The position numbers were made by a program. 35,030 nucleotides of DNA from assembly GCA_964434475.1 (NCBI GenBank), contig CAYSVS010000009.1, forward strand, positions 1 through 35,030, in the 5' to 3' direction. Within the stretch, counting starts at the first letter, position 1, and every line of letters starts with the position of its first letter. Origin of the DNA: an uncultured Methanosarcinales archaeon (GTDB lineage Archaea > Nanobdellota > Nanobdellia > Woesearchaeales > CAYSVS01). Positions 1-3,000 of this stretch are shown one piece after another.

Positions 1-3000
1 AATGTGCAATTAATCTAAAAAGCTAAGCTAAACAGCAATTATGCAAAGTTCTCTGCATATATGAAATTGTACTAGATATTACGTAAAGGACTAATAATGG
101 CAGTTCTGGTTTGTTATATAACTCTGTTAACCATCGATTTCAACTCTTTTTTTAATAATTTGATTTTTAAAAGTAGTGTTGGTATTGACTGCGTTTTCAT
201 ACTGGAACTAATTTTTGCTATCTTAAAAGACTCTTTCGCTTTATTAAATATAATCTAAAGAATAATCTGTTGATGCTATTTTTTTATTAATATGTTATTT
301 ACTTATGCTGATTAGTGTATTAGGAGTCCTTTGATTTTTTAGAAAATAAATAAAGAATAAGTAAAAAAAACAGATTATTTTTTAGGAATTTCTACTTGTT
401 CTTCCATAGCTGCTTTTTTGTCATCTTCTGAAACTGTAGAAGCTTCCTTTTTTGGTTCTTCTTTATGTTCTGTTTTATCTTCCTTAAGTTCAGGTTTAGA
501 AGCTTCTTTTTTTGGTTCTTCTTTATCTTCTGTTTTATCTTCCTTAATTTCAGGTTTAGAAGCTTCTTTTTTTGGTTCTTCTTTATCTTCTGTTTTATCT
601 TCCTTAATTTCAGGTTTTTCTTTTACTTCTTCTTTAGTTGTCTCTTTTTGAGGAGGTTCTTCTTTTTTTTCTTCTGCATTAAGATTATCTTTCTTTGGCT
701 CTTCTTTAGCTTTTTCCTCAAAACCTGCTGCTTTTTCCAGTTCGCTGGCTTCTGTTTTTTTCAATTCTTCTGTTTTTTTCTCTTCTGGTTTCTTCTTGCT
801 ACTCTTTTTCTTAAGATCTGCCAGCTTCTGTTTTATCTCATCAGTTTTATTCTTTGGCTCTTCTTTCTTTTCCTTAACTTCTGTTTTGACTATATCAAAC
901 CCTTCAAGCTCAGCGTATACTTTTCCGTCATCCTCTTTCAATACATTTACCTTGACATGATGAGGAGGGGATTTTATACCTTTGCTCCAAATAGCTTCGT
1001 TAAGATTCTTGCCTATATTTATGTTTTCACTTTTCATGTTTTTCATTAAAAACTGTTTAAGTGCTTTAGTCGCTTTTTTAGCTCTTTTATATTTTGGGCT
1101 TTTTAGCCACTCTTTTCTTAAAGGAATGTTGTAAGTTCTTTCTATTGCCATTTGTGATTCACCTATGCTTTGGTTTTAGTCCTTCTCCATGATCTTTTTA
1201 CAGTTGTATGTCTGCCTGGATGTATCTTTCTTGTTTTACCGTATTTTTTAGGCACTGTCCAGAATGGGGCCCATCTTGTCCTTTTGCCTAATTTGATAAG
1301 TCTGAGTTTTCTGCTTAAATGTTTGTATCTAGCCATTATGAATCACCTTATTTTTGTAATACTTCATTAGCTGCTTTGTCTAACAATTCTTTTCCTTCTT
1401 TTGTGATCACTCTTCCTTTATGTGCGCCTTTCTCTTTTTTTTTTATAAGGTTTGCTGCTTCTAATTGTTGTAGGATTTTTCTTATTATATTGCCTGATGC
1501 TTTTCTGAATTGTTCTGGTTTAAAGCCTCTATTTTTGCTTCCACCGTATTTTGTCCTTAGTTTTTCAGTTCCAATCGGACCTAATTTCATGACTTTTCTA
1601 AGTACTGCTGCTGCTCTTAAATACCACCAATTTTCTTGAACAGGAGGTCTTTGCCTATTTGTTCCTGTCTTTACAAAGCTTGCCCATTCTTCTGGCTTGA
1701 TTTGCTCTAGCTTTTCAAGCTCTTGAGCTGTTCTTTCGATTAGTTTCGTTGGATTAACGTTAAAATACTTTCTCATTTAATAATCACCCTTATTTGGCCT
1801 TATTTTAATCTATAAATCAAAAAATACTTGCATATTTAAATGTTACGGGTTTAATCTTTGTTTATGTGATTTAATGTTCTATTTAATCACTGATTAGTTA
1901 TTAAAAAACGTTAATTTTAAATATTCTTAATATTTAACTTAATATAAAATGTTTAAGAAATTAATGATGATGGCAGGAATTGGTGTATTGACTGCTAATT
2001 TGTATGCAGGTAATCAAGAAGTAAAATATTCTGACATTCAAGATAATAAAGATAAAGTAGTGCAAACTAGGTTTATATATAGATATAATCATATGGAACT
2101 TATGAAATCTGATCCTGGTTTTGATATGCAGATTTTGGAGAGAAAAGTGGATAGGTTGTATAAATATTTAGAAAAAGAAGACGATGTTTTACTTGATTCA
2201 ACAGAACTTCCTTTTCAATATACGCATTCTATATCTATTTTAAAAGAAAAACTTGGTTATAATGGCAAATCTGATACTGATGTTAAAACAGAACTAGGAT
2301 TAAGTCAGAGATCAACCTTAAAAGAATATACTGCAACAATGTTTAAAGTTTATGAAAAAATGATAGATAATATAGAGAGTTAATCTATTTTCCTTTCCCG
2401 TCATATTCAACAAACAAAGTAGGGTTTTCGAACAATCTTATTCTTTTCATCTTCTTTACATATGGTTTTAATTCTTTCCAGATCCATACTGCAATGTTTT
2501 CTAAAGTAGGCTGCTTCATATAATCGTTCAGAAATGCACCCTTTAATTGCGCTATAATTGTTTTCTCAACAGTATTTGTTAATGTTCTTGTGTCGATGAT
2601 CATTCCTATGTCATTAACTTTACTTTCAACTTCGACCATCAATTTGTAGTTATGTTCGTGTAATGGTTGGCCTTCTGCATCTTGCAGCTTGTGCTTTGCT
2701 TTGAAAAAAAAACTTTTTGATAATAACATATTAACACCCGATACGTGTGTTTACGTTCTTTTTTAAATTTATTGTTGTGTTTAATTATTCATTATAATAA
2801 ATATATGTTCTAGCATAATCTTTATAAATATGCTTAAGATAAATCATTTGATGATAAATTACAAAAAAAAGCCAGATACAGAAAAGAAAATAAAAAAGAT
2901 TCTGCATCCTGTAGTTGCTAAGTGGTTCTTCAGAAAGTTCAAGAATTTCTCGCTTCCGCAGTTATATGGTGTTATGGAGATACACCAAAGGCAGAATATT

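What a model noticed while it worked through the whole genome (the two positions that open the first line are those of the whole stretch)
375..1151. Ribosomal proteins carry long charged low-complexity tails
Twelve ribosomal proteins exceed their Swiss-Prot relatives by about 790 residues in total, as Glu/Lys-rich tails: eL31 258 vs 87 aa, uL10 517 vs 338, uL11 248 vs 160, uS5, eL32, eL14. The uncalled L7Ae gene (C54:3324-4005) has an ESKE-repeat tail of over 90 residues.
Evidence so far: Length table in call 122. eL31 frames are 176-218 aa in 5 of 5 relatives; uL10 ranges 264-569 aa in 40 order genomes; L7Ae is 97-160 aa in 40 relatives and at least 227 here. Paper search call 126 empty.
(Added by a program. 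Inside this text positions count along the whole contig: contig position 1 is position 1 of the stretch shown here. "Call 12" and the like, gene names such as g00115 and contig names such as C1 are that model's own, and its searches are not shown. The text may have been shortened before it was handed on; [...] marks where a part breaks off. The agent that wrote the report below was given it as the finding of a first reader that could run no searches.)

Follow-up and report, generated by a model that had tools for sequence, protein, structure and literature searches.

The report
Ribosomal tails with portable end motifs
Tiny symbiotic archaea hang long, floppy, charged tails on many ribosomal proteins, and the same short peptide signature turns up at the tail ends of eight unrelated ribosomal proteins, hinting that the tails fish for one shared but unknown partner.

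Summary
Real, and lineage-wide. The window's eL31 is an 88-residue core plus a 170-residue Glu/Lys tail, predicted disordered; archaeal eL31 chains in the PDB are 89-95 aa. Across the phylum, 136 of 150 listed eL31 frames are ≥130 aa; this one is the longest. Tails sit on a recurring subset of proteins and, where measurable, show dN/dS 0.07-0.35.

Corrections: the uL11 extension is a conserved helical domain, uS5's is N-terminal, and L7Ae '227 aa' counts a 100-N gap.

New here: a motif, KVP[ST]AxELxx[KR]K, occurs in 58 of 58 archaeal hits of a GTDB scan in frame near the C-terminus of ribosomal proteins (eL31, uS3, uL10, eS6, uS4, eS19, uL22, uL1). A second motif (EL.KKGTLR) ends uL10, eS19 and uL22. 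This genome has the first motif only on uL10, which lacks its usual factor-binding end. Some relatives copy tail DNA between genes.

Best reading: charged spacers, some displaying motifs for a shared partner (unidentified). Ribosomal low-complexity tails are in print. This scan already found these tails, the uL11 arm, the uL10 end motif and tail copying on other DNA.

The parts
375..1151 (-). rpl31e gene, 258 aa (eL31 with C-terminal tail)
   Evidence: ORF; Pfam PF01198 aa 5-71, E 1.3e-15
888..1151 (-). Folded eL31 core, residues 1-88
   Evidence: AlphaFold2 pLDDT 83-95 per 10-residue block; PDB matches of 89-95 aa
378..887 (-). 170-residue Glu/Lys polyampholyte tail, predicted disordered
   Evidence: E 27%, K 29%, net -6; charged fraction 0.62, well-mixed charges, z -2.1 vs shuffles; coil, block pLDDT 47-63
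804..845 (-). Short amphipathic helix in the tail, residues 103-116
   Evidence: Only helix predicted in the tail; a similar pattern 10-17 residues after the core in 17 of 124 eL31 tails vs 1.6 in shuffles (pattern chosen after seeing the data)
714..743 (-). 10-residue island (residues 137-146) identical in a same-genus relative
   Evidence: Alignment with L009/G002; coordinates; absent from the other congener G001
438..617 (-). Three in-frame 60-bp tandem copies (20-aa unit), a recent slippage expansion giving 60 of the 170 tail residues
   Evidence: TRF period 60, 3.0 copies, 97%; copies 558-617, 498-557, 438-497; contig depth about 3x the flank over the unit in run X1, which may be the source of this DNA
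1159..1164 (-). Shine-Dalgarno-like AGGTGA 7 nt before the eL31 ATG, overlapping the upstream stop
   Evidence: Sequence
1163..1336 (-). 57-aa basic ORF, probably eL39 (no tail)
   Evidence: ORF; no Pfam hit at E 0.01; name recalled from sequence and gene order; homologues sit at the same place in relatives
1348..1776 (-). rps19e gene, 142 aa, no tail here (relatives have eS19 tails, some with either motif)
   Evidence: PF01090 aa 6-141; relatives

Best explanation
In this archaeal class (Woesearchaeota and kin), a recurring subset of ribosomal proteins carries translated, intrinsically disordered Glu/Lys tails. Steps: (1) SHOWN: tails grow by in-frame tandem duplication. (2) SHOWN in relatives, not in this genome: tail DNA is copied between different ribosomal-protein genes. 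(3) SHOWN with caveats: tail sequence is under purifying selection. (4) SHOWN: two short peptide motifs recur at the tail ends of unrelated proteins of both subunits. (5) INFERRED: the near-neutral, well-mixed charged stretch is an expanded flexible spacer on the ribosome surface, and the end motifs are short amphipathic helices that bind a common, probably diffusible partner. This would raise the partner's local concentration around the ribosome, like the hinge-plus-helix design of the P stalk, but spread over the particle. The partner is unidentified; a translation factor is my first guess, because on uL10 the motif stands where the GTPase-binding end normally is. The window's own eL31 has neither motif, so it probably acts mainly as a charged brush at the tunnel-exit side (location recalled), with one possible docking helix. 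In this genome the motif is on uL10 (one strict and two degenerate copies).
For: eL31 frames are 151-266 aa in 26 of 28 matches among 31 genomes, own included; the two short ones run off their contigs. Phylum: median 176, 136 of 150 listed frames ≥130 aa. In 41 operon stretches, C-tails ≥30 aa are on uS3 34/40, eL32 35/38, eL14 19/26, uL22 12/40 and uL4 8/39, and on none of uL2, uL3, uL5, uL6, uL14, uL18, uL23, uL30, uS8, uS14, uS19. Tails stay 31-67% K+E across GC3 0.10-0.75 and in genomes of 0.5-1.6 Mb. Tail dN/dS is 0.07-0.35 in 12 of 16 orthologue pairs (4 saturated), against 0.02-0.21 for cores. Motif 1: 58 of 58 archaeal loci are in frame in a ribosomal tail, on 8 proteins; 51 named by BLAST lie 12-37 aa from the end and 7 are placed by gene order. 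It occurs in 17 of 301 phylum genomes (1 a false hit), with 0 in the reversed-pattern control. It has 57 distinct DNA spellings, Ser as both AGY and TCN, and no strong hairpin. Most charged tails of this genome are non-ribosomal (13 of 19), yet a looser motif hits only uL10 in this proteome. Motif 2: 15 of 30 loci read are real, all on uL10, eS19 or uL22 tail ends. uL10 lacks the GLGxLF end in 26 of 30 loci, while P1 keeps it in all 29 complete ones. The P-stalk precedent is PMC7768734 (passages).
Against: No partner is identified and no binding is shown. The strict motif is in only about 5% of genomes (16 of 301), and a loose form is in 13 of 124 eL31 tails, so most tails, including this window's, do without it. 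[ST]xxE followed by a hydrophobic residue is a generic helix cap (recalled), and some copies replace S/T with K. Tail copying alone could spread a motif among ribosomal genes. 16 of 30 uL10 proteins have almost no tail at all. eL31 tail length does not track uS3, eL32 or eL14 tail length, and Ala+Pro content follows GC3 (rho 0.58, n=36), so much of the sequence drifts. The dN/dS pairs were hand-picked motif carriers, and local alignment of low-complexity sequence biases dN/dS downward. The genomes are related and not independent. The GTDB scan is not exhaustive: G015 and G192 carry the motif but are not among the 78.
Confidence: 0.5

Rival explanations
1. Passive brush only. The tails keep ribosomes soluble and apart from each other, DNA and membrane in very small cells. 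The motifs are helix caps that hitch-hike by tail copying and bind nothing specific.
For: Charged fraction 0.56-0.74, mostly well-mixed. Similar tails on non-ribosomal proteins. Most tails lack the motifs. Copying between genes is real.
Against: The motif is restricted to ribosomal tail ends (58 of 58), keeps its peptide across 57 DNA spellings and at least two orders, and is often repeated 2-3 times within one tail. Shared segments differ mostly at synonymous sites (17 of 41 synonymous vs 9 of 169 non-synonymous sites in L082/L123).
Confidence: 0.3
2. Neutral or slightly harmful bloat from slippage in A-rich DNA and drift in host-dependent lineages.
For: Recent 60-bp triplication here. Repeat tails in L7Ae and eS24 that break the assembly. 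Large length scatter and uncorrelated lengths.
Against: Present class-wide, also in 0.5-0.7 Mb genomes and at GC3 0.75. dN/dS well below 1. Absent from 11 other proteins of the same operon. This rival likely explains the extra length of this genome's tails, not their existence.
Confidence: 0.1
3. Classical basic extensions that grip and stabilise rRNA, as in eukaryotic or organellar ribosomes.
For: eL14, uL4 and eL19 tails are net basic (+22 to +31 per 100 residues). The uL11 extension is folded.
Against: eL31, uS3, uL10 and uS5 tails are near neutral or acidic and have 0-5% Arg and few aromatics. Their sequences turn over quickly.
Confidence: 0.06
4. The motif or shared segment is a nucleic-acid element (hairpin repeat) sitting in tail-coding DNA, and the peptide is incidental.
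For: Within-genome identity at DNA level. An earlier scan note (e1-4594338) reports such hairpins in other Woesearchaeota tails; not checked here.
Against: Third positions vary freely, median fold energy is -5 kcal/mol, and only 10 of 57 reach z < -2. All archaeal hits are in the coding frame at the C-terminus.
Confidence: 0.02
5. Assembly or gene-calling artefact.
For: N gaps lie inside the L7Ae and eS24 tails. L159 is a chimera, with an eL31 head, a uS3 tail and uL29 downstream.
Against: The window has no N. Contigs of run X1 cover the gene without differences (may be the source run). 102 long eL31 proteins exist in other assemblies. Paired tails in L082/L123, L083/L086 and L108/L148 have their proper flanking genes and differ at synonymous sites.
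Confidence: 0.02

Closest known systems
Low-complexity regions of prokaryotic ribosomal proteins (Ntountoumi et al. 2019, PMC6821194; passages and section 9 read, held supplement searched)
   Same: A/E/K-rich, mostly C-terminal, surface-located tails; archaeal S3, S24, L10 and L12 are named; function left open.
   Different: Archaeal L31e is not named in the text seen, and 'L31e', 'Woesearchaeota', 'Pacearchaeota' and 'Nanoarchae' gave no hit in the one held supplement file. The paper gives an average archaeal LCR of 36 aa; eL31 tails here are 56-170 aa. No shared motif or tail copying is described in what I read.
Archaeal P stalk aP0(aP1)6 (Imai et al. 2020, PMC7768734; passages read)
   Same: A flexible charged hinge ending in a short C-terminal motif that gathers factors around the ribosome; seven sites including aP0's own end.
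   Different: Here aP0/uL10 has lost that end in 26 of 30 loci. The new motifs are basic and unrelated in sequence, and they occur on both subunits rather than at one stalk.
Long ribosomal proteins of other archaea seen in the PDB (eL32 of 240 aa in 1jj2; uS3 of 318 aa in 9o17)
   Same: Extended ribosomal proteins exist outside this phylum.
   Different: Their eL31 stays at 89-92 aa. I did not examine the composition of those extensions.
IF2 terminal extensions (bioRxiv 10.64898/2026.02.08.704698) and Chlamydomonas chloroplast ribosome extensions (PMC12919044); abstracts and outlines only
   Same: Lineage-specific extensions on translation components, with stress or polysome roles proposed.
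   Different: These concern a single factor, or folded extensions forming one arm; they are not many interchangeable disordered tails.
Ectopic gene conversion between paralogues (tufA/tufB type; recalled, also named in earlier scan notes)
   Same: Within-genome copies are more alike than orthologues between genomes.
   Different: The genes here are unrelated; only the tails are exchanged.

Membership tests
eL31 (Pfam PF01198) | Match over the curated cut-off and the eL31 fold | tested here: met
   57.8 bits vs cut-off 25; confident core model; PDB matches
Ribosomal low-complexity regions (Ntountoumi 2019) | Terminal E/K/A-biased low-complexity segment on a ribosomal protein | tested here: met
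   eL31, uL10, uS3, eL14, eL32, L7Ae, eS24 and the uS5 N-terminus; their exact entropy cut-off was not applied
Ribosomal low-complexity regions (Ntountoumi 2019) | uL11 extension is low-complexity or disordered | tested here: not met
   Conserved alignment; helices 167-201, 207-216 and 221-227 at pLDDT about 80; only residues 232-248 are disordered
Ribosomal low-complexity regions (Ntountoumi 2019) | Located on the ribosome surface | not testable with these tools
   No ribosome structure for this lineage was found; inferred from which proteins tolerate tails
P-stalk factor-recruiting C-terminus | Acidic hinge ending in GLGxLF(G) | tested here: not met
   Absent from this uL10 and from 26 of 30 loci; present in P1
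P-stalk factor-recruiting C-terminus | Binds translational GTPases | not tested
Classical basic rRNA-binding extensions | Net basic, Arg-rich, conserved sequence | tested here: not met
   eL31 tail net -6 with no Arg; eL14 and uL4 tails are basic but Arg-poor
Concerted evolution by ectopic gene conversion | Within-genome copies more alike than orthologues between genomes | tested here: met
   eL31 vs uS3 tail scores 265 and 261 within genomes A and C; orthologues A vs C score 201 and 216. Not seen in this genome: longest shared stretch 21 nt
Palindromic DNA elements in coding regions (RPE/REP-like; recalled) | Conserved hairpin independent of reading frame | tested here: not met
   all archaeal hits are in frame

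The most novel reading that the evidence does not exclude
These archaea have a 'distributed stalk': portable tail cassettes, moved between unrelated ribosomal-protein genes by recombination, display one or two short helical motifs from both subunits to recruit a common ribosome-directed partner (translation, hibernation, turnover or membrane-anchoring factor). On uL10 the cassette has displaced the canonical GTPase-binding end.
Probability: 0.35. Interest if true: 0.85.

Novelty: new variant of a known kind. Interest (0 to 1): 0.55.

Why it matters
Ribosomal low-complexity tails are common and their function is an open question (PMC6821194 says so). A motif confined to ribosomal tail ends but free to move among eight proteins turns that question into a direct test with a 12-residue bait peptide. 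If a partner exists, it is an undescribed ribosome-associated interaction in a very large uncultured archaeal class, and a case of interaction sites spreading by recombination between unrelated essential genes. If none exists, the finding reduces to a lineage-wide example of a known habit.

Tried and rejected
Tail replaces a lost NAC: rejected, NAC is in 30 of 31 genomes including this one.

uL11 knob as the motif's partner: dropped; family f79, richest in the motif, has the long uL11 helix but not the knob in 2 of 2 read.

Tail copying within this genome: not found, longest shared stretch 21 nt among 17 tails.

AT-bias as sole cause, and coordinated tail lengths: not supported (only uS3 vs eL32 correlate, rho 0.64).

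ESM Atlas: no usable hit for the uL10 end; only a sub-threshold uL11 cluster for the uL11 extension. Pfam found no family over cut-off for the uL11 extension, and Foldseek's listed matches were to the uL11 core.

Sequencing runs: no RNA holder listed.

Kinship of four loci titled Methanosarcinales: not given by the tool.

Motif-2 DNA pattern: 55 of 301 genomes match but the reversed control is about as frequent, so only the loci that were read count.

A true outgroup census of eL31 lengths was not possible; I rely on PDB chains.

Paper searches listed nothing on these tails by title or abstract; five motif spellings gave 0 papers. Subscription papers and bioRxiv supplements were not searched.

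Rows dropped: the G069 eL34/eL14 pair (one fused ORF, same DNA); the G156 motif hit (in-frame stops); L159 noted as a chimera but still counted among the 19 eL31 rows.

Full report
ORGANISM. The window is contig C9 of a 1.5-Mb, 148-contig genome, 33% GC. Its order includes records titled Woesearchaeota: the eL31 of same-order genome G019 reappears in such a record, and named long homologues are Woesearchaeota, Nanoarchaeota or Pacearchaeota.

THE OBSERVATION. 375-1151(-) encodes 258 aa. Pfam L31e covers residues 5-71. AlphaFold2 folds residues 1-88 confidently and leaves the rest as coil, except one helix at 103-116. The tail has 170 residues, 27% Glu and 29% Lys, net -6, with well-mixed charges. 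Sixty of its residues come from three 60-bp copies at 97% identity; contig depth over the unit is about three times the flank in a run that may be the source of this DNA. Archaeal eL31 chains in the PDB are about 89-95 aa.

CORRECTIONS. The uL11 extension is conserved and folded: a 35-residue helix and two short helices, then a 17-residue floppy end. uL11 frames are ≥232 aa in 33 of 40 matches and 158-177 in 7. uS5's extension is N-terminal. L7Ae has 176 sequenced codons before a 100-N gap and 16 after; the figure 227 counts the Ns. eS24 has the same kind of gap, with 91 codons before and about 56 after.

DISTRIBUTION. Among 31 genomes, 28 match eL31 and 26 of the 28 frames are 151-266 aa; the two short ones run off their contigs. 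Across the phylum 248 of 251 match. Of the 150 rows listed (98 not shown), the median frame is 176, 136 are ≥130 and 6 are ≤110; this genome's is the longest. These are stop-to-stop frames, but the translated sets confirm C-terminal tails. One listed row (G256) is from an unpublished genome. In 41 operon stretches (40 hand-picked for long contigs, plus own), tails recur on uS3, eL32, eL14, uL22 and uL4 and are missing from eleven other proteins (core ends set by my own alignment thresholds). Within this genome, 6 of 19 terminal charged tails are ribosomal and 13 are not, so ribosomal proteins are enriched but not alone.

uL10. Of 30 loci read (of 45 matches), 16 end within 14 residues of the last core helix, 4 keep the canonical GLGxLF end, and 10 have E/K tails of 38-245 residues without it. 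P1 keeps the canonical end in all 29 complete copies. By PMC7768734 (passages), the homologous end of aP0 is one of seven GTPase-binding sites.

MOTIF 1. This genome's uL10 ends with three copies, one strict and two degenerate, of a motif KVP[ST]AxELxx[KR]K. A looser pattern hits no other ORF of this genome. A DNA pattern for it matched 17 of 301 phylum genomes, one falsely, against 0 for the reversed control. A scan of the GTDB collection gave 78 loci. Twenty have bacterial titles: 13 are short off-frame ORFs, 6 have no ORF, and 1 is in frame inside an unrelated 348-aa protein. All 58 archaeal loci are in frame in a ribosomal tail: eL31 19, uS3 12, uL10 9, eS6 4, uS4 2, eS19 2, uL22 2 and uL1 1 by BLAST, and 7 more by gene order. 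Titles are Woesearchaeota, Nanoarchaeota or Nanoarchaeia for 49, 'archaeon' for 5 and Methanosarcinales for 4; the last four lie in 0.6-1.2 Mb genomes with proteins close to this genome's, so I suspect mislabelling but could not confirm it. The scan overlaps, misses at least two known carriers, and the genomes are related. The motif is kept as peptide, not DNA.

MOTIF 2. An amphipathic end of the form E.E.L..EL.KKGTLR. Of 30 loci read (of 65 matches), 15 are real: uL10 11, eS19 2, uL22 2; one uL10 row is from unpublished G458. The other 15 are off-frame or unrelated. It is absent from this genome.

TAIL COPYING. In three genomes the last 45-75 residues of eL31 and uS3 are nearly identical: 87% over 70 codons, 96% over 73 codons, and 114 nt exact. 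Flanking genes are the proper ones. Within-genome pairs score higher than orthologues between genomes. Several other same-genome pairs share only the motif (10-20 nt exact). In the motif-independent set, exact stretches ≥30 nt join tails of different proteins in 3 of 439 within-genome pairs (4 of 440 before dropping a fused ORF) and 0 of 16,241 between-genome pairs; all three are neighbouring or near-neighbouring genes. This genome shows none. One contig is a chimera through such a repeat (L159), so assembly errors do occur here.

SELECTION. Tail dN/dS is 0.07-0.35 in 12 of 16 hand-picked pairs, against 0.02-0.21 for cores; for the window's tail it is 0.33 against G001 and saturated against G002. 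Alignment bias makes these figures low estimates. Tails stay K/E-rich over GC3 0.10-0.75.

MECHANISM. Shown: origin by duplication and copying, persistence across the class, restriction to certain proteins, two portable motifs. Inferred: the tail is an expanded flexible spacer, and the motifs are short helices for a shared partner (0.5). A passive brush with hitch-hiking motifs is the main rival (0.3). The hosts lie at scattered sites on both subunits (positions recalled), which argues for a diffusible partner or a large surface rather than one rRNA pocket. The window's eL31 has neither motif; its extreme length is probably recent slippage on an inherited tail.

KNOWN AND NEW. Ribosomal low-complexity tails are described in PMC6821194 (passages, section 9, one supplement file searched without hits). 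The review PMC9932298 (passages) treats eL31 as a single domain without extensions. Nine paper searches listed no description of these tails, motifs or copying; subscription papers and bioRxiv supplements were not seen. Earlier notes of this scan already report the Woesearchaeota tails, the uL11 arm, a replaced uL10 end with a short motif, and tail copying in other archaea. Two word look-ups for the shared motif returned nothing.

VERDICT. Real; a new variant of a known kind; interest 0.55. The portable motifs are the part worth an experiment.

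Noticed in passing
G000:C15:4958-5704(-) (L261:940-1683): uL11 carries a conserved, folded ~70-aa extension (long helix plus two-helix knob) with no Pfam family over cut-off; long frames in 33 of 40 relatives; family f79 has the helix without the knob.
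   Followed up: partly
L029-L058 (uL10 of 30 order genomes): 16 of 30 uL10 proteins stop right after the last core helix, with no hinge or factor-binding end at all.
   Followed up: partly
L210 (G069:C1:55100-74600): eL34 and eL14 are fused in one 203-aa ORF.
   Followed up: no
L159:1360-2065: Chimeric contig: eL31 head, uS3 tail, then uL29 and the rest of the S10-spc cluster; probably a misassembly through the shared tail repeat.
   Followed up: partly
L114 and L138: The motif-bearing end of uL10 lies in a different frame from the core (frameshift in the tail); sequencing error or slippage, not resolved.
   Followed up: no
G000:C7:22588-23859, C5:37520-39385, C12:14128-15135, C93:1478-1801, C7:24069-26759, C56:7289-8011: Long acidic or E/K tails on non-ribosomal proteins (ScpB-, FtsY-, HIT-, cold-shock- and gyrase-A-like by recall) and one wholly E/K-rich 240-aa ORF.
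   Followed up: no
G000:C47:7934-8377, C62:2422-2742, C59:7151-7444: Three small proteins with Lys/Ala/Pro repeat tracts that resemble histone-H1-like proteins (resemblance recalled).
   Followed up: no
window 2830-6021 (+): Lhr-family helicase (Pfam to residue 833) with about 200 extra C-terminal residues that have no Pfam hit.
   Followed up: no
window 10913-27487 (-): Run of large predicted secreted or membrane proteins (1927, 654, 708, 1038, 708 aa), several starting with a class-III-signal-like N-terminus (by eye); a possible surface-structure locus.
   Followed up: no
L004, L020, L026, P0047, P0065 (eL31 tail ends): A third recurrent tail ending (EELKE[IL].KE followed by a His/Pro-rich stretch) in some eL31 proteins.
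   Followed up: no
G000:C119, C120: Two 2-kb contigs at 65-73% GC in a 33% GC genome; likely bin contamination.
   Followed up: no
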